The position numbers were made by a program, and so were the translations under genes. 64,000 nt of DNA, from contig JBHPFV010000001.1 of assembly GCA_042571705.1 (NCBI GenBank), forward strand, positions 46,630-110,629, written 5' to 3'. Positions 84 through 27,100 of this stretch are shown piece by piece. The number at the start of each line of letters is the position of its first letter. Position 1 is the first letter of the stretch. This stretch comes from Candidatus Omnitrophota bacterium (lineage in GTDB: Bacteria; Omnitrophota; Gorgyraeia; JAFGHF01). The notes beneath the pieces were generated by a model. That model ran no database searches and was not told where the DNA came from. It worked only from the letters and a program-made list of their open reading frames with translations.

Positions 84-195
84 GTGCTGGGTATTTTGCC
101 TGTGCTTGGTTTATCTACCCATAGCTTCTATGCCTTGGCGATTATTGGGTTAATTTTATTAGGAGCCGCTATCTATCGTTTGGGGCGTAAGGGCG
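84..195 (+). repeat. Junction J0 (LG..PVLG motif + TM + basic cluster) at the ORF start
   Basis: Peptide VLGILPVLGLSTHSFYALAIIGLILLGAAIYRLGRKG. DNA gtgctgggtat resembles J1-J3 (ctgggtatatc), and PVLG resembles J15/J24. Confidence 0.5.
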
Positions 196-6100: not shown

Positions 6101-9100
6101 GATTAAGCTCCATAGGGGTGGGGCTAAGCTGATTTTTAGACTGCAGGGCGTGCCTTTAAGAAATTTTGACTGGGCTGAGATTTCTGCGGATGAGGCTAAA
6201 GAGGTAGTCAGGACAATCGGCCTGGCCTTAGACAAGCTACACGCCTGCGGCATTGTCCACAATAGTCTTTGGGATATTGAAATAATAGAAAACAACATCC
6301 GAATTATAGAGGAGCAAGGTACGATTAAAGTACATTTTGCTAATTTTGCCTTTGCCGAAACCGCCATTCATTGGTTGCGGTTTACCCATGAGCGGGATAC
6401 CCTGATTAGTCTGCTGACAGAAAAACTAGATTCAACATATGCAGATGGCCAATTTGACTGTGCAGAATTTACTGCCTGCTATGAAAATTGGCCCTTGGGC
6501 AAGCAGAGGCATCCGCCAACAGCGATGATTGGCTGGATCTGGGAGCGTTGGATCGGTGAGGGCAGGGGCAAAATCTCAAGAAAAACCGCAGCCAGGATAT
6601 CGTTTACGCTTGAGGAAGGCTTTTTTGCCGGAATCTTACTTAATTTTCTGCCGTGGCTGTTTGCGAAAATTGGTTCCTTGGACCCCGGTGTTATGTTCGT
6701 GGTGTTGTTTTATCTCAGCATCGTCTGTTATGCCACATCCCACACCCGGATCTATCGCTGGCAGCAAGGTAAAGTTGAGGACGAAGAGGCCAATGTGCGT
6801 CATCTGTTCTGGTTTGCGCTCATAGGCTTCCTCTTCCGCATTGGTTACATTATTCCCGGTGTGCCGGGATGGTCGAGCCTGCTTCTAGCCTTAGCATTAC
6901 ACGCCCTGTATAACAATGTCGTTGTGCCACTTGTACCAAGGCTGCCTTTAGCGATGGCGGCGGATAAAGTAACTCCGGCAAAAGCGAAGCTATCTCGCCT
7001 GCAAAACTTTGCCCGGGATTTTAAGTATATGAAAAATATAACATATCGCATTATTAAGTTCAGATATAATGGCGCGCGCTTGGAAAACGGCAAATGTTAC
7101 ATTGTCAGAGCAAATAAGCCTGATGTACGTGCAGTTGAAGAAGCAAAGGTGCTTTTGGATATAAATCCGGAAAATGCCGTTCAGTCTTTGCCTAGCTTGA
7201 TAGGTTTTGTTAAGCCTGAAAGCGTTCAACAGGCCATGGAACATACTTTTAGCTGGTTTGATGATTTTTCTGATGCGATAGTGGTTGAATTTATTGATGG
7301 TCAGAAATTAGAAGATTATTTTGCCCGTGTTTTAACTCATGAAAAGAAAAGCCTGGGTGAACCTATCCTTTTTGAGTTGGTTTTGAAGATCCTGCGAGCT
7401 TATAAAGAAATTTACGCGGATAAAGGATATGTAGCTTGTGATTTGGATCCTTTTGGAATTATTGTGCAGGCAAAATATAATGGGATTGAAAGAGTTGTGT
7501 TTGTAGATAATGATGCCACGGCAAGGATCGATGACTTAAGTTCCGCAGCCATCTATAATAAACTTTCACACAAAGATGACTTCATAAGTGCAGATAGAAG
7601 AGCGAGGATTAACAAATATATCTTTTGCAAGGATGCCCTTGGGCTAAAACACGAGCGAGTTATTTCCTTGTCTAGAATGCTTTGTTTACCCAGAGACGAT
7701 GTTTACGCTTTATGCGCGACTTTATTACAATGTATTCATTATATTCCTCAAGCATGGTTTGATCAACCTAATCAAGGGAAGGCTAAGGCCAAGATTGCTC
7801 AATTAAAGCACTTGCTGTCAAAGTATAAACGCTTATCCTGCCGCGCGCGCAAACACGACCCAGCGTCAATAGATAATTTTATCCAAGATGTAGAGGCAAT
7901 AGCTGGGACCAAGCAGGCCAAAACAACACCCGCTACGGCGATGATCGGTCATTTCTGGAACTGGTTATACCAGAAAGATATAATATCCTTGGAGACCGCG
8001 GCCAGGATTGCCGGCTTAGAGGAGCTGGTGTTTGCTGGACTTTTACTTAATTTTATGCCTTGGTTTTTGGCAAAATGTGGATTCTTGGATCCTGCAATTT
8101 TTCAATTACTCTTTGTAATCAGCGTCATCTCCTTTGCTCTTCTTCACGATGCCTTCTATTTTTGGGAAGGCGATAAAGTTAATTTAGATTCTTTAATTGA
8201 TACCGAAACTGATAAAGTCTCATTTGCGCTCCTGGGCCTTGCCTTTAGATTAACTTATCTTATTCCCCAAATCAACCCCTGGCTTAGTTTAGCCATCGCC
8301 CTGGTTTTCCATACTCTCTACAACAATTTCATTGCTTGGAAGTGGTCTGATGATCTACCCATAGCCATGGCCAGTCAAAAGGCGAAAAGAGGAACAATGA
8401 AAAGAGCAATTTTCTCTGGTACTCGGGAGTACTCATTCACTAAGGATGATTTAACTACGAGGGTTCCTTGTTGGAGAAGATCTGTCGGAAGAGACAGAGG
8501 AAACAGAAGAAGAAGAGGATACTTTTCAATGGCAAAACAGGAACAAACCAACAAGACCGCGCTGGGTATATCTTTTGCGCCCATTCTAATGATCGCTGGG
8601 CTGGGGTTGATGTTGGGGCTGGTTGTGGTGTTTACCTTAGTGTTGTTGGGTTGGATGAGGAAAAAGGCGGGCAAAACACTATTATTTATAGCTGATAAAG
8701 GAGTTCCAATCTATCTCTATGTCTTGGAGAATCTTTTTAAGCAGCCCTTTAGAGATATCCTCTCCTTTATGAAAAGGCACTACCGTACATTTTCCATCAG
8801 GATGTTTAAAATAGATGTGGCTTCCACGCTGTCTAATTGGCTCAAAACCAAGTTGTTTAAGAATTTTGATGACCAGAGAGGATTTGAGAGGAATGAGTCT
8901 CATTTGGCCAGCGAAGATACGATTAAAGAGTGGGTCAAGGCCCAAGTTGCTGCCGGTGCCGATGTATTAGATCTTCATGTAGCAATTAAGGGAAGAGATG
9001 AGGCCGAAGATTTACTCTGGGTGATCGGATTGGCAAGAGAATGTACCACCCTGCCGATAAGTATTGACAGTGTTGATCCGCAAGTCGTTACCCAGGTGCT

Positions 9101-12100
9101 TCGGGCAACAGAGAATAGGACTGCCGACCCTAACGATAAAGATTATCTTTATGGTGGTCCGGTAGTGATTAATTCCATCAATGAGCAAAATGTGGCTGCT
9201 TTTACAGAAATCCTCACTGAGCAGAGTCTGCGGGATATTTCGGTGATTGTCCAGCCTCATCCCGGGCTAATATCTAAATACCTAGAGTGGGAAAAGTTAA
9301 CGGCGGCACAACTTGACAGCATTAAGCATTGCGTAGTAGCGCTCAAGGGATTAATTCCTGAAAGAGATATTTACATCGATCCGGGCATCCAACCAGTTGG
9401 GATGTATGGATCAGGATACGGGGTAATTGCCCTAACTCTGTTAAGAAAGATTAAGTCTGATCCTAAACTGGCGAATGTAAAAACCACGGGTGGATTCAGT
9501 AATGTAGGTAACAAATTAGAATTGTATAAAGATGTGAAGGAAAAATTTGAATCGGTCAAGCATATGAAATCTAAGCTGGCGCAGGCAAGTGTGATTATGG
9601 CTATGCTTTATCGGTCTTTAGACGCCGCCTTAATCGACCCAACAGACAGCGAGCTAATGGAGAGTATCAATATGGCTGGCCAAATCAATAAGGTCTGGGA
9701 GCAGTTGGAAGTTGAGGTTAGCAATCAGGAATTTCCTCTTGCTGACGAGAAATTGAGCGAGATCATTGATAAATATAATATCAGTATTGACGAAGAAAAG
9801 AAAGACCTGATCAATCAGGTTTGCATGCTGATGCTTATCGCCTCCAAGGCAGATCAGACTGATAAGTCTATGCTTGAGCCTGATTGGCAGCCTGAATGGG
9901 AGCCAAAGGTAAGCGCAGAAGACAGCGCTGCTAAGGCCCAACGCACGCTGCGGGCGGCCAGGGTAGCCCTGCTCAAGTCGGAGTACGGCGTGCGTAATCT
10001 ACTGGATGAATTTATCTTCGCCGAGCCAGTCATTGCTGAGCCGGAAGAGGATTCCGAAACCGAACAAGCGCTGGGCGTATCCGCTTTACCTATTCTAGCA
10101 TTCACCGACCCGCTATCAGTAGCTTTAGTTGTTTTCTTTTTGGTTTATGTAACATGGATATTTGTGGACTGGGCGTATTTCGAAGGTATGCGGCAGTTTG
10201 CCAGCTTTGAGCCGGTTGAATGGAAGGATATGCAGCCAGCGGTTCTATTTGTCAGACTGTCGAGTGGTTTGGAAGAATACCACAGGCTGGATGCTTTACG
10301 CGGTTATAATACCTTCGGCGCGCTGGCCAGCGCCTTAAGAAGTAAACAATTTTTACAAAAATTTGCTCACGCTAATAGATTAAACAGTCCCGAGTTTGTC
10401 TTTGAAAGTGAGGATGACTACCCTGATTTTGATGTGCATCTGGCCGATCTTTCCCGAAAGCCAGAGCAGGCTTCTATAGAAGAGTATTTAAATAATTTCC
10501 TCAGTGAGAAAAATATCCAACCATTTATGGTCTGCGTATCAGCCACCAGCACTGAACTTGACGAGGCCAAGGAAGTAGCTAGAGTTTCGGCTGAGATTAT
10601 GCCTGAGGCTAAGCGAGTGATCGGCGGGGCACATGTTTCAGTAGCACCTAATGGCTATTTACGCAAGACAGCATACCAGATTGCCTGTATCGGCGAAGGG
10701 GTAGAAACCCTGACCGAATTAGCTTTTGAGTTGAATGTTCAAGGCCGGCGCAGGCCGAAACTATCTAAAATTTCAGGCATTGCTTACAAAACCGCAAAAT
10801 TTTGGATACGCTTAACTCCGGATAGGATGCCTCAACTTAAGCTTAATGATTATCCTTATCCCTCAAATAGCTTAGATTTGTTTGTTGATAATTGGGAAAG
10901 CGTTGAGGAAAATAAGAAGTGCGTAATTCCGATATATGCCGGTTCAGGCTGTCGATACAATTGCGCCTTTTGCGCTCAAAAGGCAATCTACAAAGGAAGA
11001 ATCAGAGAGCGCAGCGCAGTTAGCATCTTTTCCGAGTTAAAGAAGTTACACAAAAAAGGTTTTAGAATGTTTAGGATGCTTCAAGAAAGCTTTCTCAATA
11101 ACAAGGACAGGAACAAGGGCAGGGTCGAACGATTTTTAGAGTTAATAGAGGCAGAAAAAGCCAAAAATGCAGATTTTAAGTTTAAATGGCAAGCAGAAGC
11201 CAGGGCCGACCAATTTGATGATTATAATTTATTGCGCAGGATGAGAGACAATGGATTATGGGGTATTGCGATAGGCTTAGAAACAGGCGACCAGGCGCTC
11301 CTTGACTCCTTAGACAAAAAAATCAAGCTTGAACAGGTGTCGCGGTTAATCGAATGGTGTGATGAGCTTGGTATCGATATAGTGGCTTACTTAATGGTTG
11401 GCCTGCCTAATCAAGATTGGCAGAGTGCGTTAAAGACAGTCATCTTCTTCAAAAGGAATCTGCCGCGTATTATTTATATTAAAATTAATCCATTTATTGC
11501 TGCTGCCTATCTAGGTACTAGACTCAGCAGAGACGGCTCAATAAGAATTATTAGAAAAGCAAAGAACAGCCTTGATTTACCTGTAAGCACTGAAACCGAT
11601 GCGAAGACTTCTGAAGAAATAACCGAAGCATGGGAACTCCTGAGTAAGTTCAATGTCGCCTTTGAAGCAATAACTAGAGTTGTTGTAGTAGACGGAACAG
11701 ACCTTTACGAAGTGCCTTTAGATAAGCCAACCACTTTAATAATTAGAAGGACTATGCGAGATCTTGTTATCCGGGCCCAGCCCAAACTTACGGCCAAGAA
11801 ACGCAAGCAGGCATATCAACAAATAGTTAAGCACGATGTAGCCGCAGATGTGGATATTGGTTTTGAGCGCGAACAACTGGCCACAAGGCTGTTTACCGAT
11901 TTTATTCTGGATATAAATTTTGCCAATGGATTTAAGGCAATGCGGCATTTCACTGTCGTCAACCGGATCAAATGGATGCTCCTCTGCGCCGCTATCTGGG
12001 GATTAAAGAATAGTGAATTTGATACTATAGAATTTACACAAGACGAAGATACGTTAGGACAAAAGCTCAACAACTCATTAGAGGTAGTTAGCCTTAAGGA

Positions 12101-15100
12101 GCTGAATGGATTGGTAAGCGCAGTTGATCAAGAGGAAACAGCAGTTCCGGATATAGCGCAACACCTCCAAGAGTTTACCGCTCAGCTAGATCTTGATTTT
12201 ACTTTCGACAAAAGCGCCGGAAGGCTAATTTTGGCCAAAGCTGAAAAAAGCGAACAAGCAGTGCTGGGTATATCGATTCTACAGATTATGATTCCTGTTG
12301 GCCCAATAGCATTAGCTCTATTTATCGCCTTAATCTTAACCTGGCTGTATTTTAAGACCGTTTCTCAAACCAATCGGAGAAGCCTGCCCGCCAGGTATAC
12401 TCTTGGGCAGGCGGGTGTCCTAAAACCAATCCCCGCCTGCCTGACAAGAAGCAGGGCGGGCAGGGGAAAAGTGTACCCTGGGCAAAATCGTAAGCATCCG
12501 ATGCAGTCTCTGCTTGGTGGCGGCATAGTCCGGGCCAGTGTATCATCCGGTTCAAAAAATACGGAAACAGAAACCGCTCGGTCTAAAAGTCGTCGGAAGC
12601 GCATTGAGGCAATACGAGAAATGGTGAAAGACAAGCCAGATCATTCTGTTGAGTACGATGAGATAGTGCGATACTTACATAACCTATTTGATGATACTAG
12701 CGTAAAAAAACTCACAGTCGTACAAGATTTTAGAATTGAGCCAACCTTAAAACCTCTGAAAATAAAAATTAAAATAAAACATGAGACTTTTCCAGACACG
12801 CCGGCGCATAGAGATGCAATAGTTAAACTGATGGAAGATTTGCCAAGAGGCACCAAGTTGACTTACGAAGAAATAGCAGAAAAGATGAAAAAACAAGGTT
12901 TTGATAGTTCCTTCAGGAGAGTCATGCGCGAATTTGGCAGCAATGATGCACGTCTTAAAAAATTGCGTCAAAGAATTAAAAGCGAAAGAATTGAGAGAGC
13001 AATAGAAGCCAAAAGACGCAGAGGCGAAACAGAGGCCTATTTGAAACCGTTGCCGCCAAGGTCGATTACCTATGAGCAGTTAATAAAGATACTTATCGAC
13101 AAAAAAAATTGTGTAGGACTGAGACTCAAGCAGGTGCAATCAGACTTTGATCATGAGCCGCGCCTGCAGAAGCTACGCAATAGAATCAGGCTGGTTCATG
13201 TCGGAAGGAGCCTTAAGCCGCTAGGACGATTTAAATTTGATTTCATTGGCCTGAAAGCAAGAGGAATACTGCCTAGATTTTTAGTGTTATCAATGAACAA
13301 TTGGGACAATGAGAAGGCAGCTAAGCATTTTGGTGTTGGTTTTGAGACATTTATAGGGCAATGCGTAACGCTCAAAATTAACGAGATGCGCAATCCTGAA
13401 CAGGGGCGCAACAAGATTAACCTTGAGCAGTGGCAGATAGAGCAGCTCAAAGATAGGCAGGCTACGGCACTTGCCTATCATCAGGCCTGGGAGCTGGCCA
13501 ATGGCGATAAGAAACAAATGGCCAAATTACTGGGTATCAGTCGTAGTTGGGTGAGCAACCGGATGGGAAGGCTCGGCAAAAATTTCGAAAAAAGCCTTGG
13601 CCCGAATATTGAGCTGCGTATAGCAAAGGAAATCGGGATTCTTAATGTCTGCAAAAACCAAATTACACCTTCTGAATTGGCGGCTAAGTTACATGAGAAG
13701 CCTGTTTACAATAACATTCCTTTGGCCCAACTGGAAAAATTGGTCTGGCAGGATGCCTTGGGCTTCAAAGATATTTGCGCCCACCGCAACTTCATCTTTG
13801 CTGAATGGGTGCCGGTTGAGATTAAAAAACCGAAACTAGGTGGCGCTAAAGGCCAAGTAAGCCCTCTAAGGAAACCCCTAGACCCAAAAGAGGAAAAGTT
13901 AGCGAAAAGGGTAAATAATGCCAGAGCGCTTTTATCCAGCTTAGAGCGTTTTTATCAACACTATTTAATTCCGAAACAAATTGGCATCCAGAATGATAAG
14001 CAAAACATCACCTGTTTGTTGATGATCGAGACCATGTTAGGTTGCTTAAAAGACATTATCCAGGATCATATTATTAAAGAACCAACAATCAAGCAACTGG
14101 GTCAGGATCTAAATGTAGACACTGTGGGCCTGGAAAAAAGAGCAAAAATAGCAAGTAAGGAAATTAGAAAGGGGCCTACAGGTAGCATGAAGACATTAAG
14201 CAGGCGTAAACAAGAAATATGGGATGAGATTAAATCTGCTGATGAACTCGATGAAGGCCATCTTAAGTGTGAAGACGCAAAACCAATAGTGCCGCCCATA
14301 TTTTGGATTCCTTATGTGGAGAGATTGCGAAAAATACACAAAATATGGAAATCGCTTCATGCTCAAGAGGAAGGAGAAAAAGAAGCTCACTGGGAAAAAG
14401 CGCTTGCACCCGGTCGCGCTGCCGCGTCCGGCTTTATAAAGCCCGACTTTTTGCCTGAGGAAGACGTGCCATACAAAAGATCAAATTATAAGAAAGACTT
14501 AGAGCGAGCGCAGAAAGCTGTTGCGGAAGGATTAAAGTCAGCGCAGAAAGCTGCGGCTGAGCCCCGGAAGGCTGAAGATACTGTTGAGGGATTAATGCAA
14601 AAAGCTCAGCAGGAGTTAGGAAAACTCAAGTCTTTAGCGGCAAAAGGCGTCGGTGGTATGGAATGGTTTGAGAGCGTTAGTAGAATAGAAAACATGCTCG
14701 ATCGACTTGATGCGGTAGCTCATCAGCTTAGTAAAGAAAGTGATATTGTTTTTCTTTGTTACTGGAAATCAAATCAGCGGGTAAGACTGGAAGAACTGGC
14801 TGAGAGGCAAGAGAAACCAAAGCGACACTCAGAGGATGATGAACAGTTTACTGCTCAATTAGCGGCCTATGAAGGAATGACATATCCAGTGATGTTAGAA
14901 ACCAGCTTAGCGGAAGGAAAAATTAATTTTGCGGTTACCCTGGTCGCAAAAATCGAAGTTCGCGGATGGGCGGATACTATTCCCGGCTGGGGTGAGCTTA
15001 AGGCTCGTGTAGTACGGGAGGCAAAGAACTATCAGGCCTCTGCTAAAAAATCCGCCCCAGACACAAAGTGCCTCTTATTGCCGCTGGCCTGGATTGCCGC

Positions 15101-18100
15101 ACCCGGCCTGCAGCCTGCCACCTGGCAGCTAATTCTTTTCACCTTGTGTCTATTCCTCATCCTTTGGACCGTTTCTCAACTTGACCCTGCGCTTAAAGGA
15201 ATTGCGCAGGCTAGGCCCAAAAGCCTGTCCTTTAGGAGCTACCCTTGTGGGTTAAATCGGGAAGTTGAGCTGATTTCAAAGCGGAACCTCTCTCCTGACA
15301 CGGGAGAAGCAAAAAATTGGCTGCACCAAATGACCAGGGCTAATTCAGGTAGTTTGCCAGGAACAACAACTCCAGATGTCCAGGGAGAAGTCCTTAAAGT
15401 TGATAAATCGAGGTTTGACTTGGGAGAGGCTATTGATCAGGTTGTTCAGTCAAAGACCACAAAAGGACGCAAGCAAAGGGTTGTGGAAGTGCGCGGCGAT
15501 ACAGTCCAATTGCAATATCAGCAAGCAATAATTTCCGATATCTTAACTACACTATTAGGAATTATGTTCACGGTTATAAGAGTTAGCGATAAGCTAGCCA
15601 TTTATGTCAGGAGCGGAGAGGAGAAAGTCCTGATTAGATTATTCAGCACTTCCCGCAAGGTGAGTAGACGAAGATTAGAAAGTGAAATTGAGCAATCTGG
15701 CATTCAAGACAAATTGGATGATATCTATGGCCGGCTTTATCCGGAGATATTTAGAAAAGCAGGCCATGATTCCGCAACAGAGATTGTGCTAACGCTTACT
15801 TTGCCGATGAGCGATCCCAAAGCTTTAGTCAGGGCTGGCGCCCGCCACGGCATGATTATTGCTGATCAGGACATACCAGATCCAAGAATTAAGAAGTTTA
15901 TGGACATTATCCGTCAGCACGGTGCAGAAAACCACTACATAGTCTTTGGCGGGCATGGCCGCAATATGTTTTCCGGCCGCAAGGGTGTTCCAGCTGATTT
16001 CGATGTATTAGTTAGAATTAATGCAAGCGAAGTTGATTTATTAAGCGCAGGTTGTGAAGTTAGTACTTTATTGAAACAAGGATATGTGACAGCAGAAGAT
16101 TTACAGTTACTAGGCGCCAACGAAGCAACAGTGCTAAAAGCAAGATTAGAACAATTAGAGAATGAATTAGTTGGTGTGTCTAAGAAAGGCAGTACTTATG
16201 CTCGTCTGCGTGCAGCTTTTGAAAGACATTACGGAGATCGAAAGAGTTTTAGAGGCGAAGAGATGCAGACTCGCAGGATAGTCAGATATCTAGCACATTT
16301 AGAGATAGTCAGGCGTTATGTCTTGCCTATGACCGAAAGGCTTGAGAAAATTTTCGATGTGGAAAACGGGGCTATTTCAGATTATATTAGTCGGGATAAC
16401 CGACTTGTTTGTTTATACGCCCGGACCAAGCATTGCCATATTGATGGCGGCTGCCTGGATTATGCGGGATTTGTTACTTCAGATGGACTATTTCATCAAG
16501 CCCGTGGGCGATTTCAAATAATTGATGGCAATCAACCCCGCGCAGATCAACTAGGTATATGTTGCAATGGGGTGGTTTACGATCCCCTCGGAGCCTTAGA
16601 AGACTATCGGCAAAGAACTATAAAGCTAGAATCCAAATTAAGCGAAAAGGACAAAATTAGAATAAGGCAAGTATTGCGTTGTTTTAGAATTAAACATTTA
16701 AATTTATTTAATCCAGATGATGAAGCGAAAACTGCAATGTATGATTTTTGTTCTAACGCTTCAGGCGTTTTCTTCAATTCAGCTTCTTGGCGAGCATTTA
16801 CTCAAAGGCATGCTTTATTAGATGAGGGAGTGAGGCAATTAGAGGGGCTGATATTAAAAAAGAGAATGATTGTCCGTGAGTTACACTTCGAAGAGGAACA
16901 ACATATTCAACGAGAAATAAACCAACAGATTAGGGCACTGCTTCAATATATAAAAGAAAAATCATCTGCCTGGCGTCTGGCCAATCAATTCTTAAGAGAA
17001 GATTTTGCCGCACTTGTTTTACGGCAGAATAACGCACCCAAAAATAGCTACTTAAAGGAAGAAGCCGAAAGAAAACTTATGCTTGGTTTAGAAAAATACC
17101 TTTATATTCCTTCTAATGCCGGGGCCCTCTTCTCTTATGCAGGGGTGTATCGATGGGTTCAGGATGTAAAGAGAGACCCGGTATTTGTAGCTTGGTATTT
17201 AGGTAAGATTTACCGGGCAGCGCTTCGGCCGGAGGATGTAAAAGAAGATTTAAGGCAAGCAGAATTTTTGCCTTTATTTGAAGCCCTTGGTATCAGTATT
17301 GACAATATGGAAGAAGAGGCGATTGATTATAGACTGGCCAGCCTGCAGGAGCCTATTACTTTGGAAGAGGAAATTAGACTTGCCGAATATATGCTGGCAC
17401 AAGGCCGCTGTCCTGAAAAGTGGCTTTACGTGCTCAGATATGCTTATCGACAAAGAGCAGTCCTGGATAGAGAAGAAGGCCGGCCTATAGCCGCTAGCCA
17501 GAATTTCAACAGGGCCATTGATTGTAGGATTACTTTAGCCGGATTACAGACGAAAGATAGACCACAGGATGCCGCGGAGCATTACTTAAGCGCCGGCAGT
17601 ATTTGCGAAGAGATTGCCGATTACAACAAGGCCAAAGTGCTTTATCTTGCCGCCTTAAGGATTCTGCAATGGGAGAGCGCTAAATCAGAAGACTTACCCG
17701 ATCTTCAATCTTATGCTACATGGAATCTCTTAAAAGAGACATTTGAGAAGTTATCGGCATTAGAATGTAAATACGGTAAGATGCATTTAGGTACCGAACA
17801 TCAAAAGAATGCTAATTTGGCCGCAATCGAGGCAGACAATGCTGTTCTTGCCCCAATCAGAGCAGAGCTTAAGGCTGCCGGCAGCTCTTTAAGCCCGCAA
17901 CAGCACTTAGTTAATATTATCATGAAAGATGCGGTCCTGAAAGAAGGCTTGGCAGCAGTTGGGCTCCTAAGACAACTCTCAGGTAAGGCTGCTCAATTTG
18001 GCCTGAGAGTGGCCAAGAGAACACTAATGCGCAGAACTACCAATCTGGACGCACCGCAAATAATCGGCGTAGACTCAAGGAAAGGTCGGCACGCGGATAA

Positions 18101-21100
18101 CTCGTGCCTCTTATTGCCGCTGGCCTGGATTGCCGCACCCGGCCTGCAGCCTGCCACCTGGCAGCTAATTCTTTTCACCTTGTGTCTATTCCTCCTCCTT
18201 AGGACCAGGTCCGGAAGCAATAAGGAAGTCCTGCCCGCCATGTTAAATCGGTGGCAGGCGGGTGAGCCAGAACCAATCGGGAAGGTGTCCCCTAAGCAAA
18301 ATCGCAAGCATCCGATGCGGTCGCTGTTTGGTGACCGAATAGTTCGGGCCAGGTTATCCGGAGCGGAAGACCAGGGCAATCGGGCAGAAGAATTGAGTCC
18401 CAGCCAGGTGCATTTTATTGCAGAAAGCGGTTTAGTAGGCAGAAGCCAAATTGATAATTTAATAGCGCGTGTTTCTATTTCTCAACCGGAAGGTGATCTT
18501 AACAGTTGGCCGGAATCAGTGTTCTCACATTTTACGCAGGAAGGATTGTTTGCCAGGCGTGCCCAAGCAGTGCTTGAGGCAGTTGAGTATTTGCCTGAAT
18601 CTGATTTGACTAAAGATATTTTCTTGGCACTAAGCGGGATGGGAGAAGCGGGTAGAATGAAATTGGAGATTACAGCAAGTAGGTTAGGAAAAAGCACTAA
18701 TTACTGCAAGCGACGTTACCAATGGAGTAAGCAGGTAGTTCTTATGATAGTAAGGAAACGGGATAGGGAAAAATTAAAAGAATTGTTTGAACAGCAGAGG
18801 GACTATCTTACTACTCCCAAGTATCGGAAACAGTGTGAAGAAGCAATTGAGGAATTGGACCGGGCATATTTTCAGTTGTTTAGAAAAAACTTAAGCCAGG
18901 CCAGTGAAAGATATGTCGGCATTGCTTCTTTATCTCAAGTCAAGTTTATGATTGATGAAGGTTACTTTACAGATGCTGAGCTTAAACAAATCCAGTCTGA
19001 CCGTGATTTTGTACATCTTTCTTTTGACGTTATACGGAAGTGGCAACTTGAGGCCATGGGCAGGCATTTGAAGGTTATTGAAAAAAGGACGAAAATTATT
19101 GCCGCAATTGCTTTTCTTCCCTCTCAAGATAAAACAAGAGACATTTTTAAATACTGTAATGGTTTTACTGATGAAGGCGTTGCCGTGAAACGTGAACAGG
19201 TAGCTCAATTATTGGGGAAATCCACAGAGTACCTTGATAGCAGGAACCAATTGGCTAAGCAAGTAGTTAAGGATATTGTTTTTGAGCGTAAAAAAGAGGC
19301 GGCGGGAAGGTTAATCAGTTTAAGAGATGGTGTTTATATGGCCCGGCAGAACCGCAATAAAAGAGAATATCAGGAAGCAGCCCTGGAAGTAACTGAAGCG
19401 ATAAAGGAACTGCATAGCGGGCTTGCGGGTGAGCTGCCTAGCTTGACAAGGGATTCCTCAACTGTACTTTCTGAACAAAAAGTAAGGTTTTTGCTGGTTA
19501 ATCGTTTAATTACAAGAAATCGGCTTAACCAGATTATGGAGGATACCGGTTTTATAGAGTATCCGGTAAGAGATGTTGTCACAGTATGTTTTCTGGACGG
19601 CTACTTATCAGAAGAAGCGCAACAGAAACTCGTAATAAAAGATAGCGGTGAGCGTGTGTTTAGTTCTGCCAGAGGAGTTACGCGCGCGATTAAACGATGG
19701 GTTAACGGCCTAGCTTGGCATAAGCTTGTTATTCAACAGGCAGAAGAAGTAGAAAGTTATGCCCGGAGATTTATGCCGCAGGCTGAAGGCGTGAGAAACT
19801 ATTTTCTTGAATTTAACGCTGCAAAATTACCTACGCCGCTATATGCGCAAGCGATAGAAGTTATGCGCGATTTTATTATTAAAGGTGAAGCAACGGGAGT
19901 AAGGAGCCTTATTGATTTTCGTCATTGGCTGGTCTATCAAGATCCACTGCGGAGGCCAAAATGGCGGGGATTAGTAAAAGAATTGGATGGTATTATTGCC
20001 GGGTTTGATAAGTTAATTTATAGCGAAAAGTCGCAACTGTCTGTTAACCCTGGTGAGTTCGTCTCTTACCACTGCGCAAGGTTTCTTCTGGAGAACGGTT
20101 TTGTTTTAAAAAGGGATTGGGATTCTTTAATGCAGGACCCGGTATTTTCTCGGAAGGCCGAGTTTGACGTAATACACAGGCTCTACTTTAGAGGCCAGGA
20201 CGCAACACAAATAATGGCCTGGGCTAAAGGTAGAGAAATCTTCGCGGGTATTACTTCTCAGCAGGATTGGGATGACTTAATTGCAACTTGTATCGGAAGG
20301 ATTGGCCAGCACCCGGTGATCAGAGGAGTAAGAGAGAGAGTCTTGAAGGTATGTGAATATTTACCGTTAAGCGATGACAGCCGGCCAATATTTATCGCTC
20401 TTAATGGGTTAAGTGGCGAGGGTATTCCCGTGGTTAGAAAAGTTTATGCCCGGGAAATCAAGCGGCATACAGCGTATTTATTGAAACGCAATGAAATATG
20501 TACAGCTGTAGTAAAAAGTGTTTTTTATGGAGATAAAAATAGTGCCAGGTGTAAGTTATTAAAAATTCATTCCTGGCTAGACCAGGACTTTTCCCGCAGT
20601 AGGGCACAGTCTCAAGCAAGCCAGCTTGAAATTAAACGCATCCTTTCGACTTTAGTGACGGCCTCTTTGCCTACTGTAAGACCGGAATTTATCCCTCAAG
20701 GCCTGCCAGCGGGAGCTAGGAGGGTGTTTTCTGTAGAGAGTGAGGTAAAAGACAAACCGGTTGTCGAAGTCTCTTTGCCCTTGGCCCCATCCGGCCGGAA
20801 AAAGCCGTTAGAGCAGGATAGCCCGAAAGTGCCAGAAGAAAAGTTAGCGTTACTCCATACGGAAATTTCCAGTATGTTACAGCAGCTGGATGCTATAGTT
20901 TATTCAGTTAGTGATGAGGAAGTTAAAACTTTATCAAACTGGCGCGCAGTTGATGAAAGAATAGCGTCTTTACCCGAGCCGGATAAATTTGAATATACCG
21001 ACCAAAGAGATAAACTTTTAGAGACGCGGCTTCATCTTTTTGAAAATTTAGCTTATACCTTAGCTTCAGCAAGGCCAGACGATATGAGAGATAAAAGGTT

Positions 21101-24100
21101 AAGCAAGATGCCAATGAAGGGAGGCCCTTATCGGCATACGCCCGTTAATCAGAGGCCTAATATCGCAACAATTCTCAGTAAGTCCGGTGGTCCGGTCAAG
21201 GGAGAGATAAAAAGAATGTTAAGGCAGCGAGAGCAACAGTTAGCGCCGTCCGCTCCAGACGACCAATCCGCTTTCGGGCTGCTGCCGGTTATGTTTGGTC
21301 CGTGGTCTTTGATGCTGGGCTGGGGCCTGGTGAAAATCCAGCCGTGGATGTGGGTAGTGTTGCTAGTAGTGGCAATGGCAAGTGTTCTCTGGAAGAGCTT
21401 AGTCAGGCATAGACAGCTGGCGGCAATTAGACTTAGCGGCAGACAGGTTAAGGTTACAGATGGGTTGGAGGCTGAAGATAGGCCGGACAAAGAACTTGTG
21501 CGCCGACTCAGCAGACCAAAACAGAACAGATCGCAGCTGCCCCCTGCAGAGGGCAGGCACGAGACACCGAAGGAATCATCCGGCCTGCGTTTAAACAGCA
21601 GCAATATCAAGAAGATTCGTGTGGCCGGTTTCACTGGTCCAGGCGGCCGGAGATTGGATTTTGTGTCTCTTGGATGGAGGCATAGTTTAGCTTTTAACCT
21701 TACATTATGGCATACTGGTTGGCATTTTCCCTGGCAACATGAACAAGCCCATAAAATTTTAAATGTAACAAAGAGTTATATACAGACAAAAATACAAAGT
21801 TATTTTGATCCTTCGCTCACCACTCAACAAAAAACCACACTGCAGACCATCGCATTCACCGATCAGCAGAAAAAAGCCCTGGCGCAAGATGTAGTCCAGG
21901 AGCTAGCTTGCGCGCAAGCTTATGCCCTAACCGATAGTCACAAACAGGCTATGTGTAAACTGTTAGGTGTTAGCACTACGCTGATAGATAATTGGATTAA
22001 AAGGAATGAGAGAAACTTAAAAAGGATATTAAAAAGTAATGTTTGGCAGCGTCTGTACAAAGAAATAGCTATTTTAGATGCGGCAGATGGTGGGATGACC
22101 ATTTTTGAATTGTACAATAGACTGCGAGCAGAACCAGAGTTCAAATATGTGAAGCAGGACTTAGTATTGCTCGATGTTTTAGGATGTAAGAATCTTCTTG
22201 GTCATGAAAATCTCATTATAGCCAGATGGCATGAAGAGAAAAACATTATAGAGATAAATCAACAAGCCCTAAAAGCGCTACAAGCCGAGTATATTTTTAA
22301 CAATCCGAAATCTATGTTGAAAATAGAAATATATAGAGCAGGCATCTGCAATCTACTTAAACAACTGGAAGGGGTAGAGGATTTTGTGCAAAGATATTTC
22401 AACTCGGATGCAACTCACGATCAGACTAGTGCACAACGCCGAGATTGTTTACTCATTAGCTGGACCTGTGTACAACTTATAAGGACAATTTTTGACAATA
22501 TCTTAACTCGGCTAGTGAAACTTAACGGCCAAGAATATACGCCCTTAGGTAAATTAATCGGCGTTCAAGCAGCAAACAAAGCGGACCAAATATATGATCA
22601 TTTATCAGCTTTGGCGGAAATATTGCCCAGGCCAGCTAGAACGGCGAAACCTGGCTTCTCTTCAGTTGGTATGGATAGAGCTATAACATGCCCCTCACTT
22701 TGGGAGGCATGGCAAAAAATTAACGCCAGGTTAGATGAGCAAAAAACAGCAAAACCGGTCTCTGTAGTTAGGCAGACAAGGTTTCCAGGAGCAGATGCAA
22801 AACCCGCCCCTGCCGCCAAAATACCGCAACCTCCTGCAGAAAGACTAAAGGAGGCCATAATAAGAAGGCTGAATGGTTTTAAAGAGACGCAATTTACAAC
22901 AGTTGAGTCTTTAGAAAAGGCCTATTGTAAGTTCGAGAGTACTTTGGAAACCCTGTCAGGTAGAAAACGAAAGTTACGCTTAACTCGCTTTATTACAGGG
23001 CAAAAGGAAGAACTATTGAAGGAATATAGCAACAAGCTGGAAGCGTTAAGAAAGGAAGAGAGAACCGCAGGCGAGACGTTAAGTCAACCAGGTGGTGGCA
23101 TAGGGGCCGAGGAGACAGGAGCCTGTGGCTTGGGGATTTATCAGGGTGGCAAAGTGGCGCCGGATGTACGGAAGGCAGCCGATGAGAAGATAAAAGAATA
23201 TGCCCGGGAAGAGAGGCTGAATGATTACAGAGATGCTCCGGTGGCAGGATATTTGGGTGAGGGCGGAAAAGATATTTGCCAAGTGATAGAAAAGGCTTGG
23301 CCGGTTCAATTGAATGTTCAAGTGGTCATGCCTAAGGGGACGATTTCTGCAGAAAGCTTGTTAGCTAATTCATTTATCTGGCAGGACGCTGAAACACAAA
23401 ATAGATTTGTGCTTAGCTATCTCAAAGGAGGAATTCTCTACCTGCCTTTAGGTCTGTTCATTCTGCTGGGTAAATATCAGCGCATTGATTTGTTAAGGGC
23501 AATATTGAAATTTGAGAAGGGCAATATCGGTAAAACCGATCAGGATAAGGAGGACAAGAAGGAAGCAGAGCGCCTGGCAAAAGAGGTCTGGAAGTTATAT
23601 GAATTAGAGGCGCACAAGATCAATGGCCAGGTTATCCATTCCGGTGAGCTTAAGATTACGGTTCCGGCTGACTTTTCACAATTGCCGATTGATGTTGAGG
23701 TCAGCCAGCCTGAAAATACAAAGCTGGTTTTAAGCCCGTCATGGAGTTTGGGTATATTGCATGCCATGAATGCCGGGGTGCTGGCTTTGGACAGCAGGCG
23801 GCTTTTATTCGTGCGGGTGGTTAAGCCGAATTCCGGTGATTGCGACTTTGATTTGCGGCGATCTGAAATCTGGCTGTTTGAGCATATTCCCGCTGCTAAT
23901 AATGATCAGAAGGATGAAGTTAAGCTGATTAAAGCGGGGATGCTGATGCCGGATGATGAACAACTTGTTCCTGAAGGAGCGAGCCTTGAGGCCCTGGAGG
24001 ATGCCAGGGTCATTACCAGAGAGACTGACTTCCAGCGCCACAAGGTTTTTGTATACTTGACCGCGGTGTCTAAAGACGGTAACTGGCATTCAGCGTTGAC

Positions 24101-27100
24101 TGCGCATGATACGGCAGAGTTTATCAATATGATTGAAGGAAATGGACCTAGTGCTGATTGGTCGGCTTTAAAGAAATTGATTAATGGCGGCCCTTGCGCT
24201 GATGAGAACATCAAGAACTTTACCCCGCTTGGCAATCCCGCAAACGGAAAGTGGAACGCCTTATACCGGCCGGAAGTAGCCGAGCGGACTACGATTAGAA
24301 GGGCAATATTTAAGCAGGGCTTGGCTGGACCCTGGAACGATGCCGGGATATTCATGTCAATGGATATGCAGGATGGCTGGTTTGGGCCTTCGGCCTACGT
24401 TGCGGGAATGCCGGAAAGAGACGAGAAGCCTTGTTATGACTTTACACTTTTCCATACTGCACGGATCAGAGACAAAAATAAGGAGTTGCCTGAGAACGAC
24501 AACAAGCAGTACGACATACGTTTGCTGATCACCGATAGAAGTGATCCGCGTAGGCTCTATTTGACCGGTCCTATCCTGACTTCGGAAGATGTCGGTCCAT
24601 ATGGCCAATATGGCTGGGTGCCGGGGACGATTTACAGCTGCGGAGCGATTCTAACCGATTACGACATGGATACCGGAAAATATACATTTGACATATATTA
24701 CAGCGGCTCCGACTCCTTGGTAATGTGCTCCACTGTTACCATCAACATCAAGACGGGTGAGCAAAGCTCAAACAGGGAAGTGTCCCCTGGCCATATTCTG
24801 TGCGCCATTGAACCGGTTTCGCCGTTGATGCTGGGCCTGCCTCTTGCGCAAATACAGCCGTGGATGTGGGCAGCTTTGATGTTAGTGGCGGCAATTTTAT
24901 TCAAAGCAGTGCTGGTTATCAAGGAGGTTAGGTCAGGGGAGCTCAAAGAACTGCAAAAGGCGGAAAGTAAGTGTCTAACATACCGACTATGCTATATTTT
25001 ATCATATTCGATTTACATTGTAGCTCTACTTGCGTTATTGGGCGGGATAATGCCTTATTCAGATGTAGAAATTTTCTCTAATCAGTTAGTCGCTTTTATT
25101 GGGACGTGCCTACTATTCCTGGCATTAGGTCTAGCTGTCATCAGTGCTATCAATCTATTATTACTCCAAGGTGAAGAAAGGGAACTGTTAGTTACTAAAG
25201 GCTTATATAGGTTCATCAGGCATCCTATCTATCTCTCGATAAGAATGGTGTCATTGGCTTACTTTATGCGGGAACCCTCAATAGGCAATGCGCTGGGAAT
25301 AGTAATTTTATATTTAATGACTGAAATTGTAGCCAGGACAGAGGAAAAGGTTCTGGAAGCAGAGCACGGAGAAGAACAAAGAGTATACAAGCAACGGACA
25401 CCCAGATGGCTGCCTCGTAAATCTAGGAACAGGTCCCAAAGTAATCAGGAGCCTGTCCCAGGCGCAATCGGAAGCGTGTCCCGGATTCAAACGGAAGCGT
25501 GTCCCCTATCGGCTGATGTAGGCAATAGCACTTTATCCGTCTTAGGACTGGTAGGGGGCTTGGGGATGATGGCCAATGGCCAATTTGATCTGTCCTTAGC
25601 GATGGTGGCTATATTTGGTTTGGCGATGGTGGGGATGGTGAAAGCTGCGGATAAGAATCGACTGCAGCAGGCGAAAACGGTAAAAGAGCTAGCTCGGGCC
25701 TGGGATGCTCTTTGTGATTCAGGAGGCGACCGAGACGAATTAAATAACATTTTGCTTAGCCGGATTATCGAATTGAGCAAGCATAAAGGAGAGCATATCC
25801 ATATTTTTGATGTCCAGCATTACTATAAAAAGCTGGTTGTTTTGGTGCGGCATAAGGAAGAACTGATCATGCCTGAGCCTATCGCCAGCATGTCCACCGG
25901 CAGACTTATCAAGAGTGTTAAAAGGGACCCCGAGCGCCCTCTAATAACTCCAAAGGCCGGGCAGAAATATGTGCTTAATCCTGGGGTAGTAGAGATCGAT
26001 GGTAAACATTATCTGTTTACCAGGATTTATACGGAAGATGAATTCTCTCAAATCGGGATGGAAGTGTTCGATGCGAATGGGAGGAGATTAGAATCTTACC
26101 CCTGCGCGCTTGATCCTTCAGAGCACCTGGCGCCTTTTAGAGGAAATAAGCTATATCGCCTGGAAGATGTCCGGGCCACCCGCATTGGTCAGCGCGTTTA
26201 CTGCTGCGCCACTATGGTGGAGATGACGCCTTTACCTGGGCCGGAACAAAGAGCGAAAAAAGACTGGGACGACACTTGGAGGCGACAATGGCATTGGCGA
26301 ACAGTCACCACCAGCATTTCCGTAAACGACCTGAAAAAGATGAACTTTAATTGGCAATATCATAAAAATGGCATATTGGTTCCGGAATGGAAAGACGAAA
26401 AAGATCAGTTGTTTAGTAAAGACGGCCTGTTATGGCCTGAGCGCATAGAACTAGGCCAGGGTCAAGCCAAATATCTGGCCTATTGTCGCCGTTCAACTAA
26501 ATCAAATCTGGGTAGAGTGCATAATTTCCCTGTTGATTATGCTGTTTCTGATAAAGTGACCGGTCCTTACAGAGTTTTAAAGAGGGCGTTTGGCCCCAGA
26601 AGACCTCAAGGGGAGCTGACCGGACTGGCTTTTGATACGGCATTTGTGGGCACGACCGGTCCGCCAGTCAAGACCGAAATTGGCTATATAGACCTTTACC
26701 ACGCTGTTTCATTCACTGCCGAAGGAAGGGTATACAGGCTGGGAATTAAAATCCACGACCTGAAGGACCCGACCAAGATTATTTATCGCTCCTGGCTGCC
26801 GATCTTGATTCCTGAGAGGGAATTCGAATTGGCCGGCTGGGAGGATAACATAGTCTACAGCTGTGGCTTTATTCCGGAACTTGAGCGTAATCGCTTGATT
26901 GTTTATTATGGCGCAGCCGATACATGTACTGGCAGAGTGGTAGCGTACCTTGCTGATAACTGGCGTGAACTTAGGCCAAATGACCTTGCCGAAATGGAAA
27001 GCCAAGAACTTAGACAACTCAGCACCATAAAAGATATTTTAGAGCACAGATTAGGGACAGGCCCCAAAGCAATCGGAAGTGTGTCCCCTAAGAGTGCTGT

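What the first reader, a model, noticed from the sequence alone, without database searches (positions are those of the whole stretch)
15068..18194. A 91-bp perfect direct repeat brackets a 3-kb module
15068-15158 and 18104-18194 are identical base for base, encoding CLLLPLAWIAAPGLQPATWQLILFTLCLFL, a TM junction subtype. They flank the module with the HK-ATPase-like, CCA/PAP-type NTase-like and TPR-like segments. Perfect identity over 91 bp in otherwise diverged surroundings implies very recent duplication or gene conversion. It also provides a substrate for RecA-mediated in-frame deletion or tandem amplification of the whole module. The copy distance, 3036 nt, is a multiple of 3, so module gain or loss would not break the giant frame.
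Basis: seen in the sequence. Interest (0 to 1): 0.6.

Follow-up and report, generated by a model that had tools for sequence, protein, structure and literature searches.

The report
Identical membrane-anchor repeats flank giant-gene module
Two base-for-base identical 91-bp stretches, each encoding a short membrane anchor, sit on either side of a 3-kb enzyme-like module in a 17,634-codon bacterial giant gene; they are the newest sign of recombination between these anchors and could let the gene lose or duplicate that module.

Summary
Window 15068-15158 and 18104-18194 are identical (91 nt, or 103 nt with 2 mismatches). This is the longest exact repeat in the window, and its flanks match only at random level. 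Both copies lie in frame in one 52.9-kb ORF (84-52988, 17,634 aa). That ORF is a multi-enzyme, many-transmembrane giant protein of the Omnitrophota type. Each copy encodes a ~33-aa hydrophobic junction.

Protein constraint does not explain the identity: all 30 degenerate codons match (P about 10^-15). The pair is the extreme of a gene-wide pattern:
- 31 of 35 dispersed nucleotide repeats lie on such junctions.
- Junction pairs share synonymous codons 2-3 times more than expected; paralogous modules do not.
- Junctions resemble their neighbours most.
- Junction units are mosaics with discordant relationships.

Best reading: a recent short-tract recombination (gene conversion) between neighbouring junction copies. 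Less likely, the junction was duplicated when module B was spliced in; B is a fused homologue of a free-standing Omnitrophota gene. The deletion/amplification idea is plausible but untestable here, because no related sequence exists in any collection searched. The "multiple of 3" point is trivial.

Side finding: genuine RelB/ParE toxin-antitoxin genes lie antisense inside the giant ORF.

The parts
84..52988 (+). Giant ORF (17,634 aa, GTG start). A multi-enzyme, many-TM polyprotein in which both repeat copies lie in frame.
   Evidence: ORF list. Pfam families above gathering score: Radical_SAM, B12-binding, PIG-L, Pterin_bind, Glyco_hydro_130, Bac_transf, Diphthami_syn_2 (x2) and QRPTase_N. Hydropathy finds 33 hydrophobic junction regions.
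15068..15170 (+). Junction copy J1. 15068-15158 is the exact 91-nt repeat and 15159-15170 is a 12-nt tail with 2 mismatches. Encodes CLLLPLAWIAAPGLQPATWQLILFTLCLFL(ILWT), a hydrophobic helix-PG-helix membrane anchor.
18104..18206 (+). Junction copy J2. 18104-18194 is the exact repeat and 18195-18206 is the tail with 2 mismatches.
15159..18103 (+). Module B (981 aa), unique within the giant protein. No Pfam or PDB match. Composition is ordinary for this gene.
   Evidence: No internal paralogue. Pfam, PDB and profile searches all negative. GC 0.436, GC3 0.386, codon-usage distance below the window mean.
15429..17495 (+). Core of module B, homologous (37-39% aa identity) to a free-standing gene of a Candidatus Omnitrophota MAG (P0001; locus L001 9758-11815).
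   Evidence: tblastn shows the homology covers B residues 91-779 and starts upstream of the annotated start of P0001.
18225..18358 (+). Basic linker after J2 (…GKVSPKQNRKHPMRSLFGDRIVRA…). It is paralogous, at about 78-81% nt identity, to the linker after the junction at aa 4068 (12379-12544), and not to the sequence after J1.
   Evidence: D13; z=18.8
12285..12544 (+). Junction at aa 4068 plus its linker, the third member used to show the mosaic. Its 13 nt GACCGTTTCTCAA (12356-12368) are identical to 15167-15179 just after J1. Its linker matches the one after J2.
49155..49346 (+). Second neighbouring junction pair (with 50502-50696): 87.7% over 195 nt with a 98% core, bracketing a ~1.15-kb unrelated module. 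An older example of the same pattern.
   Evidence: (D5, D7). Third-position identity is 39/45 in the core vs 25/45 in the flanks, Fisher P=0.002.
50502..50696 (+). Partner of 49155-49346.

Best explanation
The two 91-bp copies are neighbouring members of a family of short hydrophobic membrane-anchor 'junctions'. These junctions separate whole-protein-sized modules in a giant, Omnitrophota-type multi-enzyme polyprotein gene. A recent, short (about 91-103 nt) non-reciprocal homologous recombination event (gene conversion) made them identical. Their neighbouring position fits that, because ectopic exchange is usually more frequent between nearby copies (general knowledge, not tested here).

This is the youngest visible event of a gene-wide process in which junction DNA, but not module DNA, is repeatedly exchanged or copied.

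Shown:
- the identity and its sharp edges;
- the failure of protein constraint to explain it;
- the restriction of nucleotide repeats to junctions;
- the neighbour bias;
- the mosaic structure.

Inferred: that the mechanism is conversion rather than duplication. Also inferred: that the identical pair now serves as a substrate for RecA-type in-frame deletion (giving A-J-C) or tandem duplication of the [junction + module B] unit.
For: 1. Synonymous sites. All 30 of 30 degenerate codons are identical vs 9.0 expected (P=10^-15.4). Paralogous modules in the same gene share codons at chance level (ratio 0.73-1.33). Junction and linker pairs are at 2.3-3.0.
2. Location of repeats. 31 of 35 dispersed nucleotide repeats in the gene have both copies in hydrophobic junction regions, which cover only 27.7% of the protein. 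34 of the 35 are in frame.
3. Mosaic. Three consecutive segments of the junction units TM4068, J1 and J2 give three incompatible groupings. In the core, J1=J2 at 58/60. In the next 13 nt, TM4068=J1 at 13/13, with J2 at 7/13. In the next 62 nt, TM4068~J2 at 44/62, with J1 at random level. One duplication cannot produce this pattern.
4. Tail. The 12-nt tail carries both mismatches while the 91-nt island has none ((12/103)^2 = 0.014). This suggests a tract ending inside older homology.
5. Second neighbouring pair. 49155-49346 / 50502-50696 has a 98% core set in 62-69% flanks, with heterogeneous third-position identity (P=0.002).
6. Distant pairs. Non-adjacent junctions 5-15 kb apart also share 30-50-nt tracts of 90-97% identity. 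Local insertion-duplication cannot explain these.
7. Module B is compositionally native to the gene.
8. No other cause was found. There is no RNA family and no significant fold. There are no inverted repeats and no plasmid or phage match.
Against: - The sequence after J1 shows no significant homology to the linker after J2 (z=-0.7). So 'an identity island laid over older paralogy' rests only on the 12-nt tail and a 13-nt match. The island otherwise abuts non-homologous DNA on both sides, which a duplication would also give.
- The junction pairs used for the codon statistics were ascertained by nucleotide similarity. The protein-ascertained set shows a weaker excess (884 vs 560).
- High nucleotide conservation of the glycine-rich junction motifs could partly reflect constraint.
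- No reads, strains or orthologues were available, so recency, polarity and polymorphism are all inferred.
Confidence: 0.5

Rival explanations
1. Junction duplication at module capture. Module B, a formerly free-standing gene, was recently spliced into a single ancestral junction. The splicing event duplicated the roughly 91-103-nt hydrophobic junction, either by recombination with a junction-bearing intermediate or by a staggered or replicative join. The two copies are therefore the scar of the newest growth step of the giant gene.
For: - The identity island equals the complete hydrophobic unit and abuts non-homologous DNA on both sides.
- B has no paralogue in the gene, and residues 91-779 of its 981 match a free-standing Omnitrophota gene.
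- Junctions resemble their immediate neighbours most, 13/32 vs about 2 expected.
- Antisense toxin-antitoxin and coiled-coil genes sit between junction elements. This shows that foreign genes do get inserted there and are kept only if the frame stays open.
Against: - The 13 nt after J1 match the TM4068 unit exactly, whereas the equivalent stretch after J2 is a diverged version (7/13) followed by the TM4068-like linker. A simple duplication-insertion predicts the opposite arrangement or needs extra steps.
- B is only 39% identical to its nearest known homologue and is compositionally native, so nothing marks it as recent.
- Non-adjacent junctions also share near-identical tracts.
- There are no transposon-like ends.
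Confidence: 0.27
2. Assembly or polishing artefact. The connectivity A-J-B-J-C, or the perfect identity of the two copies, was created by the assembler or by read mis-mapping during polishing.
For: A 91-bp exact repeat exceeds several common maximum k-mer sizes, so a short-read assembler would need paired-read evidence to thread it. No reads were available to check this.
Against: - The four junction edges (A>J, J>B, B>J, J>C) have only one sensible linear solution, the one assembled. The alternative needs an endless-ORF 3,036-bp circle or tandem array, and nothing similar is found among plasmids or phages.
- 91 is not k-1 for the usual k values (my knowledge of assembler defaults).
- The same junction-restricted similarity occurs at many other sites at 72-97% identity, so the pair fits a biological continuum.
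Confidence: 0.08
3. Nucleotide-level functional element. The 91 nt are kept identical by selection on DNA or RNA, for example as a site for a dedicated recombinase that switches module B in and out, or as an RNA signal.
For: - The edges are sharp and both copies are perfectly conserved.
- The repeat contains a small palindrome, CTGCCACCTGGCAG.
- The Salmonella wzy locus uses 113-bp perfect repeats for reversible excision by an unknown mechanism (PMC12074656).
Against: - No Rfam match at E<=1.
- The fold is no better than shuffles, z=-0.37.
- No recombinase gene was seen in the window.
- The peptide pattern of the repeat was not found elsewhere, apart from one likely chance hit in an alphaproteobacterial MAG.
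Confidence: 0.05
4. Protein-level constraint plus codon bias alone keeps two old junction copies identical.
For: The segment is a hydrophobic membrane anchor that is likely under constraint.
Against: Identical codons at all 30 degenerate positions have P=10^-15.4 under this gene's codon usage. Conserved module paralogues show chance-level codon sharing.
Confidence: 0.01

Closest known systems
Omnitrophota giant proteins: 'multi-enzyme metabolic cluster' class (Nielsen & Lui 2026, bioRxiv 10.64898/2026.06.07.730766) and Archaeovorin-type giants (West-Roberts et al. 2023, bioRxiv 10.1101/2023.11.21.568195)
   Same: - A >10,000-aa single ORF with dozens of TM helices at roughly one junction per few hundred residues.
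- Many different enzyme Pfams with none dominating (Radical SAM, glycosyl and sugar enzymes).
- Carbohydrate uptake and degradation genes next door.
- The only homologue of module B found by the word-indexed protein search comes from an Omnitrophota MAG.
   Different: - No SecA_DEAD or peptidase C39/S8 domain was found by Pfam.
- Neither paper's text mentions junction, linker, gene conversion, concerted, fusion or recombination; 'antisense' does not occur in either and 'duplication' occurs once in West-Roberts, about repeat domains. Junction-restricted nucleotide repeats and antisense genes inside the ORF therefore look undescribed.
- The 2026 paper tested only tandem nucleotide repeats.
Direct-repeat-mediated reversible excision of the Salmonella Typhimurium wzy locus (PMC12074656)
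   Same: Two perfect direct repeats of about 100 bp (113 bp there vs 91 bp here) flank about 2.5-3 kb (2558 bp vs 2945 bp unique). The repeat length is at or above the quoted homology thresholds of 23-27 bp (RecBC) and 44-90 bp (RecF).
   Different: There the repeats are intergenic and excision was shown experimentally and in natural isolates. Here the repeats are coding and in frame, so deletion would leave an intact ORF minus one module. No variant has been observed.
Concerted evolution and recombination between repeated segments of modular megasynthase genes (PKS/NRPS) and of repeat-bearing surface proteins such as the streptococcal alpha C/Rib family
   Same: These are long modular genes in which near-identical DNA segments are homogenised by gene conversion. 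The same segments serve as cross-over points for module or repeat gain and loss without breaking the frame.
   Different: In those systems the homogenised units are the catalytic domains or the tandem repeats themselves. Here the homogenised units are about 100-nt membrane-anchor linkers, dispersed between non-homologous modules.

Membership tests
Omnitrophota giant multi-enzyme membrane-anchored protein | Single ORF of at least 10,000 aa | tested here: met
   ORF 84..52988, 17,634 aa, with no stop codon
Omnitrophota giant multi-enzyme membrane-anchored protein | Numerous TM helices spread along the polypeptide | tested here: met
   Kyte-Doolittle scan gives 102 overlapping windows >=1.5 that merge into 33 hydrophobic regions. 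DeepTMHMM was not available.
Omnitrophota giant multi-enzyme membrane-anchored protein | Many distinct enzyme Pfams, none dominating | tested here: met
   8 different families above gathering score; only Diphthami_syn_2 occurs twice
Omnitrophota giant multi-enzyme membrane-anchored protein | Organism belongs to phylum Omnitrophota | tested here: inconclusive
   The only strong homologue of module B is from a Candidatus Omnitrophota MAG at 39% identity. No marker gene or rRNA was identified in the window. The window's own proteins are not in the collections.
Omnitrophota giant multi-enzyme membrane-anchored protein | Divergent SecA DEAD-like domain (present in 'most' giants according to West-Roberts 2023) | tested here: not met
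   No PF07517 hit at E<=0.01 across the whole protein. The papers do not describe this feature as universal.
Intragenic gene conversion / concerted evolution of dispersed repeats | Identity at synonymous sites far above the level in comparable paralogous sequence | tested here: met
   30/30 vs 9.0 expected. Module paralogues have ratio ~1 and junction pairs 2.3-3.0.
Intragenic gene conversion / concerted evolution of dispersed repeats | Mosaic structure: adjacent segments with incompatible relationships among copies | tested here: met
   Three discordant segments among TM4068, J1 and J2. Heterogeneous third-position identity in the pair 49155/50502.
Intragenic gene conversion / concerted evolution of dispersed repeats | Converted tract embedded in older, diverged homology on both sides | tested here: inconclusive
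   Right side: a 12-nt tail at 83% identity, then nothing significant. Left side: no homology.
Intragenic gene conversion / concerted evolution of dispersed repeats | Unconverted state visible in related strains or species | not testable with these tools
   No relative in the genome or metagenome contig scans or in the protein databases
Direct-repeat-mediated excision/amplification locus (wzy-like) | [quoted passage not shown] | tested here: met
   91 nt exact, 3036 nt apart. Thresholds of 23-27 and 44-90 bp are quoted in PMC12074656.
Direct-repeat-mediated excision/amplification locus (wzy-like) | Variants with a single repeat copy and no intervening unit, or tandem duplication, in the population | not testable with these tools
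   No reads and no related contigs are available
Transposable-element insertion with target-site duplication | Terminal inverted repeats or a transposase; short (2-15 bp) duplication | tested here: not met
   No notable inverted repeats at the module ends. No transposase Pfam in the module. The repeat is 91 bp.
CCA-adding / poly(A) polymerase-type nucleotidyltransferase (PF01743), as proposed for module B | Match to the family profile or to a solved structure | tested here: not met
   No Pfam hit at E<=10. No PDB hit by sequence or profile. The AlphaFold model has pLDDT 47.5 and is unusable. Only motif-level resemblance, seen by eye, remains.
PEP-CTERM / GlyGly-CTERM-type sorting signals (considered for the glycine-rich junctions and for J) | Match to the NCBIfam/TIGRFAM signal models | tested here: not met
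   No hit for 10 junction windows even at E<=10, apart from noise

The most novel reading that the evidence does not exclude
Giant Omnitrophota genes may grow by capturing whole genes into the loops of membrane-anchor junctions, with the junction copied at each capture. On this reading J1/J2 is the still-unmutated scar of the most recent capture (module B). The antisense RelB/ParE and coiled-coil genes would be captured passengers, tolerated only because they keep the giant frame open. The identical junctions would then also make the newest module reversibly excisable.
Probability: 0.25. Interest if true: 0.75.

Novelty: new variant of a known kind. Interest (0 to 1): 0.5.

Why it matters
How bacterial giant genes of 10,000 to more than 100,000 codons arise and take in new domains is stated as an open question (West-Roberts et al. 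2023, Conclusions).

In this gene, nucleotide-level homology is confined almost entirely to the short membrane-anchor junctions between otherwise unrelated, whole-protein-sized modules. Those junctions are exchanged or copied on a time-scale much shorter than module divergence. The newest event left a perfect 91-bp repeat around a module whose closest relative is a free-standing gene.

That gives a concrete, testable handle on giant-gene growth and plasticity:
- Look for presence or absence of module B in long-read population data.
- Look for the same junction-restricted repeats in the hundreds of complete Omnitrophota genomes now available.

If the pattern is general, the junctions would be both the structural tethers of the polyprotein and the recombination joints by which it is remodelled.

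Tried and rejected
1. Related DNA. Scans of genome contigs and metagenome contigs with aa 4901-6150 confirmed no relatives. Degenerate J-peptide patterns gave one probable chance hit in an alphaproteobacterial MAG (L007) and none in the metagenomes.
2. Related proteins. Module B alone found one homologue, P0001. The full HMMER scan of 1.84 billion representatives added only P0002 and a weak P0003. A 3,050-aa query spanning A-J-B-J-C found nothing. An artificial A-tail+J+C-head 'deletion product' query also found nothing. An exact look-up of a downstream window gene was not on record. No orthologue or population comparison was therefore possible.
3. Function of module B. Pfam, PDB sequence and PDB profile searches were all negative. 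The AlphaFold2 model from a 3-sequence alignment gave pLDDT 47.5, so no fold search was run.
4. My first argument, that the linker after J1 is an old paralogue of the linkers after J2 and TM4068, failed a shuffle test (z=0.1 and -0.7). I withdrew it. Only the 13-nt exact match and the 12-nt tail remain.
5. RNA element or structure: no Rfam match and fold z=-0.37. Promoter and terminator scans were at background level.
6. Transposon or plasmid origin of J+B: no terminal inverted repeats and no plasmid or phage similarity.
7. Internal sorting or cleavage signals (PEP-CTERM, GlyGly-CTERM and similar) at the junctions: no NCBIfam support.
8. DGR template/variable repeat pair. I rejected this because the copies are identical, the two tail mismatches are A>C and T>A, and no reverse transcriptase appeared in the Pfam hits for the giant ORF, its long antisense stretches or the downstream ORFs that were scanned.
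9. Foreign composition of module B: not seen.
10. Other long antisense stop-free stretches in the giant gene: 23 scanned by Pfam, and none has a Pfam match except the second coiled-coil copy.

Full report
**1. Observation**

Window 15068-15158 and 18104-18194 are identical base for base (91 nt). The match extends to 103 nt with two mismatches. It then falls at once to 21-38% identity on both sides, which is random level. It is the longest exact repeat in the 64-kb window; the next is 37 nt.

Both copies lie in the frame of one enormous ORF, 84..52988 (17,634 aa, GTG start). They encode CLLLPLAWIAAPGLQPATWQLILFTLCLFL at aa 4996-5025 and 6008-6037. The 3036-nt spacing is a multiple of three only because both copies sit in one reading frame. 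It adds no information.

**2. What the gene is**

Pfam finds these families above gathering score, scattered along the ORF:
- Radical_SAM with B12-binding
- PIG-L
- Pterin_bind
- Glyco_hydro_130
- Bac_transf
- QRPTase_N
- two Diphthami_syn_2 domains

A hydropathy scan finds 33 hydrophobic regions that separate soluble stretches of about 300-1000 aa. Downstream lie a DUF5615/PIN-like toxin, three PilZ genes and two GFO/IDH/MocA oxidoreductases. After them come a xylose-isomerase-like TIM-barrel gene, two ORFs that look like ABC sugar permeases (by eye, not profile-tested) and two GH113 glycosidases.

This matches the membrane-anchored 'multi-enzyme metabolic cluster' class of Omnitrophota giant proteins. 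It also matches their association with carbohydrate uptake genes (bioRxiv 10.64898/2026.06.07.730766; bioRxiv 10.1101/2023.11.21.568195). The phylum assignment is an inference. It rests on the best homologue of module B coming from a Candidatus Omnitrophota MAG. No SecA_DEAD or C39/S8 peptidase domain was detected.

**3. The bracketed module**

Module B (15159-18103, 981 aa) has no paralogue elsewhere in the giant protein. It has no Pfam hit even at E<=10 and no PDB hit by sequence or profile.

A word-indexed search of 5.8 billion proteins found one relative. A full HMMER scan of 1.84 billion representatives found three. The best is P0001, a free-standing 717-aa hypothetical protein in ordinary gene neighbourhoods of two Omnitrophota MAGs, at 39% identity. 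tblastn shows the homology covers B residues 91-779 and begins upstream of P0001's annotated start. P0002, a free-standing 432-aa protein, matches only the C-terminal half.

Most of module B is therefore the fused equivalent of a stand-alone gene. About 90 residues of linker precede it and about 200 unmatched residues follow it.

I do see, by eye, a GG-x-x-R-N...D-x-D motif and a DP-x-G-x-x-D motif conserved between B and P0001. These recall class II nucleotidyltransferases, but that is a lead, not a test. The AlphaFold2 model was too poor to use (pLDDT 47.5). B's GC, GC3 and codon usage are typical of the gene.

**4. Why the identity needs a DNA-level event**

All 30 degenerate codons are the same codon, against 9.0 expected from the gene's own usage. 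The probability is 10^-15.4. As a control I took paralogous modules in the same gene: the two diphthamide-synthase-like domains, the module A/D helix-turn-helix regions and the internal repeats of module C. These share codons at aa-identical sites at chance level (ratios 0.73-1.33). Junction and linker pairs reach 2.3-3.0.

**5. The pair is the extreme of a gene-wide pattern**

- A self-blastn finds 35 dispersed nucleotide repeats in the giant gene, and 34 are in frame. In 31 of them both copies lie in the hydrophobic junction regions, which cover 27.7% of the protein. Identities run from 72% to 97% over 30-195 nt. Some pairs are 5-15 kb apart.
- Junction pairs defined purely at protein level still share more codons than expected (884 vs 560).
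- Junction regions resemble their immediate neighbours most. 13 of 32 have a neighbour as best partner, against about 2 by chance (Mann-Whitney P=0.004).
- A second neighbouring pair, 49155-49346 / 50502-50696, brackets an unrelated ~1.15-kb module. It shows a 98%-identical core set in 62-69% flanks. Third-position identity is 39/45 in the core against 25/45 outside (Fisher P=0.002).

**6. Conversion or duplication?**

I compared the junction units at aa 4068, J1 and J2. Three consecutive segments give three incompatible groupings:

| Segment | Grouping |
|---|---|
| Last 60 nt of the hydrophobic core | J1=J2 (58/60); TM4068 at random level |
| Next 13 nt | TM4068=J1 (13/13); J2 7/13 |
| Next 62 nt | TM4068~J2 (44/62; linker homology z=18.8); J1 at random level |

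A single duplication cannot produce this mosaic. Repeated short-tract exchange can. Both mismatches of the 103-nt match fall in its last 12 nt, which has probability (12/103)^2 = 0.014 if they were spread uniformly. This suggests the event ended inside older homology.

On the other side, my initial impression that the linker after J1 is an old paralogue of the other linkers failed a shuffle test. The island therefore abuts non-homologous DNA, as a junction duplication made during insertion of module B would also predict. B being a whole-gene equivalent, and the neighbour bias, fit that rival too.

I rate recent gene conversion between neighbouring junction copies at about 0.5. I rate junction duplication at module capture at about 0.27.

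**7. Other explanations**

- RNA or DNA element. There is no Rfam match at E<=1. The fold is no better than shuffles, z=-0.37. Promoter and terminator scans are at background. No recombinase was found in the window.
- Mobile element. There are no terminal inverted repeats. There is no plasmid or phage similarity.
- Assembly artefact. I could not test this without reads. The four edges around J have only one sensible linear solution, which is the one assembled. The pair also fits a biological continuum of junction similarity.
- Internal sorting or cleavage signals at the junctions. NCBIfam gives no support.

**8. Consequence (inferred)**

Ninety-one perfectly matching base pairs 3 kb apart are at or above the homology thresholds quoted for RecA-dependent recombination: 23-27 bp for RecBC and 44-90 bp for RecF (PMC12074656). 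The geometry is nearly that of the Salmonella wzy locus. There, 113-bp perfect repeats mediate a 2558-bp reversible excision that has been demonstrated experimentally.

Here a cross-over would remove or duplicate [one junction + module B] and leave the ORF intact. Whether the protein would tolerate this depends on the topology of J. Both flanks of both copies are rich in K/R (7 upstream and 4 downstream in 30 residues). That fits a hairpin or monotopic anchor with both ends in the cytoplasm. In that case loss of one unit would not flip the downstream topology. This is a prediction and has not been shown.

**9. Comparative data**

None could be obtained. The organism and its close relatives are absent from the genome, metagenome and protein collections searched. 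Polymorphism, polarity and age therefore remain untested.

**10. Novelty**

Intragenic gene conversion and repeat-mediated module loss are well known, for example in PKS/NRPS genes, repeat-bearing surface proteins and the wzy locus. What seems undescribed is their restriction to about 100-nt membrane-anchor linkers between non-homologous, whole-gene-sized modules of an Omnitrophota giant gene. Neither giant-gene paper's text mentions junctions, linkers, gene conversion or recombination. West-Roberts et al. list the incorporation of new domains as an open question.

I class the finding as a new variant of a known kind, with interest 0.5.

**11. Side finding**

Inside the giant + strand ORF, the minus strand carries:
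- a bona fide RelB-like antitoxin (39307-39507; PF18506, 43 bits);
- a ParE toxin (39060-39350; PF05016, 45 bits);
- two diverged copies of a coiled-coil gene (38450-38854 and 46835-47167).

These are documented. The giant frame crosses all four without a stop. Under synonymous recoding of those genes, the probabilities of that are 0.098, 0.014, 0.0004 and 0.028. This argues for selection, or an insertion filter, acting on ORF continuity. The cassettes sit between junction elements, which is the strongest hint for the gene-capture reading.

Noticed in passing
window 39060-39507 (- strand), inside the giant + ORF: A genuine type II toxin-antitoxin pair is encoded antisense within the giant ORF. 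The RelB-like antitoxin is at 39307-39507 (PF18506, E=4e-11, above cutoff). The ParE toxin is at 39060-39350 (PF05016, E=1.4e-11, above cutoff). The + frame reads through both without a stop and has an odd S/R/L-rich composition there. Under synonymous recoding, P(no stop) is 0.0004 for RelB and 0.014 for ParE.
   Followed up: partly
window 38450-38854 (-) and 46835-47167 (-): Two diverged copies of a ~110-135-aa coiled-coil gene lie antisense in the giant ORF, with a conserved C-terminus QALEKRI.TLE.KV. Each is preceded on the + strand by a glycine-rich junction. The minus-frame alignment scores higher than the plus-frame one (143 vs 89), so the minus strand looks like the evolved coding frame. 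Even so, the giant frame stays open (P=0.098 and 0.028).
   Followed up: partly
window ~38338-39730: The two antisense cassettes appear to sit inside one composite junction, in this order: G-type TM (38338-38440), coiled-coil gene, second G-type TM (38935-39040), RelB/ParE, then the 'ADFEPLLG' TM unit (39590-39730). Elsewhere, for example at 34000-34300, the G-type TM and the FEPLLG unit are separated by only about 15 aa. This suggests insertion into junction loops (read from the translation and the repeat families).
   Followed up: no
window 33357-33422 (aa ~11092): A junction-type motif (…NRDSDRFPETLSVFGKEGDG…) shares 80-83% nt identity with true junctions at 34978 and 41413. It is not followed by a hydrophobic helix and is probably a decayed junction relic.
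   Followed up: no
window 53004-53345 (-), overlapping + ORF 52981-53847: A DUF5615/PIN-like toxin gene (PF18480, E=9e-21) lies on the minus strand 16 nt after the giant ORF's stop. The 288-aa + strand ORF that overlaps it has an antisense-like composition and is probably spurious.
   Followed up: partly
window 12379-12544 vs 18225-18358: The basic linker after the junction at aa 4068 and the linker after J2 are 78-81% identical at nucleotide level over about 130 nt. They share the motif GKV.P.QNRKHPM.SL.G..IVRA and use the same codon at 21/28 positions. The modules that follow them are unrelated. This is another island of young homology, 5.8 kb apart.
   Followed up: partly
locus L001 9758-10000 (GCA_037143495.1, JBAWYO010000002.1): The free-standing homologue of module B (P0001) is probably annotated with too late a start. 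tblastn homology to module B begins about 240 nt upstream of the called start codon.
   Followed up: no
loci L003-L006: P0002, the free-standing homologue of the C-terminal half of module B, sits next to an AbiEii nucleotidyltransferase-toxin gene and an HTH gene in four independent metagenome contigs. This may hint at a defence or toxin-antitoxin-related role for the family.
   Followed up: no
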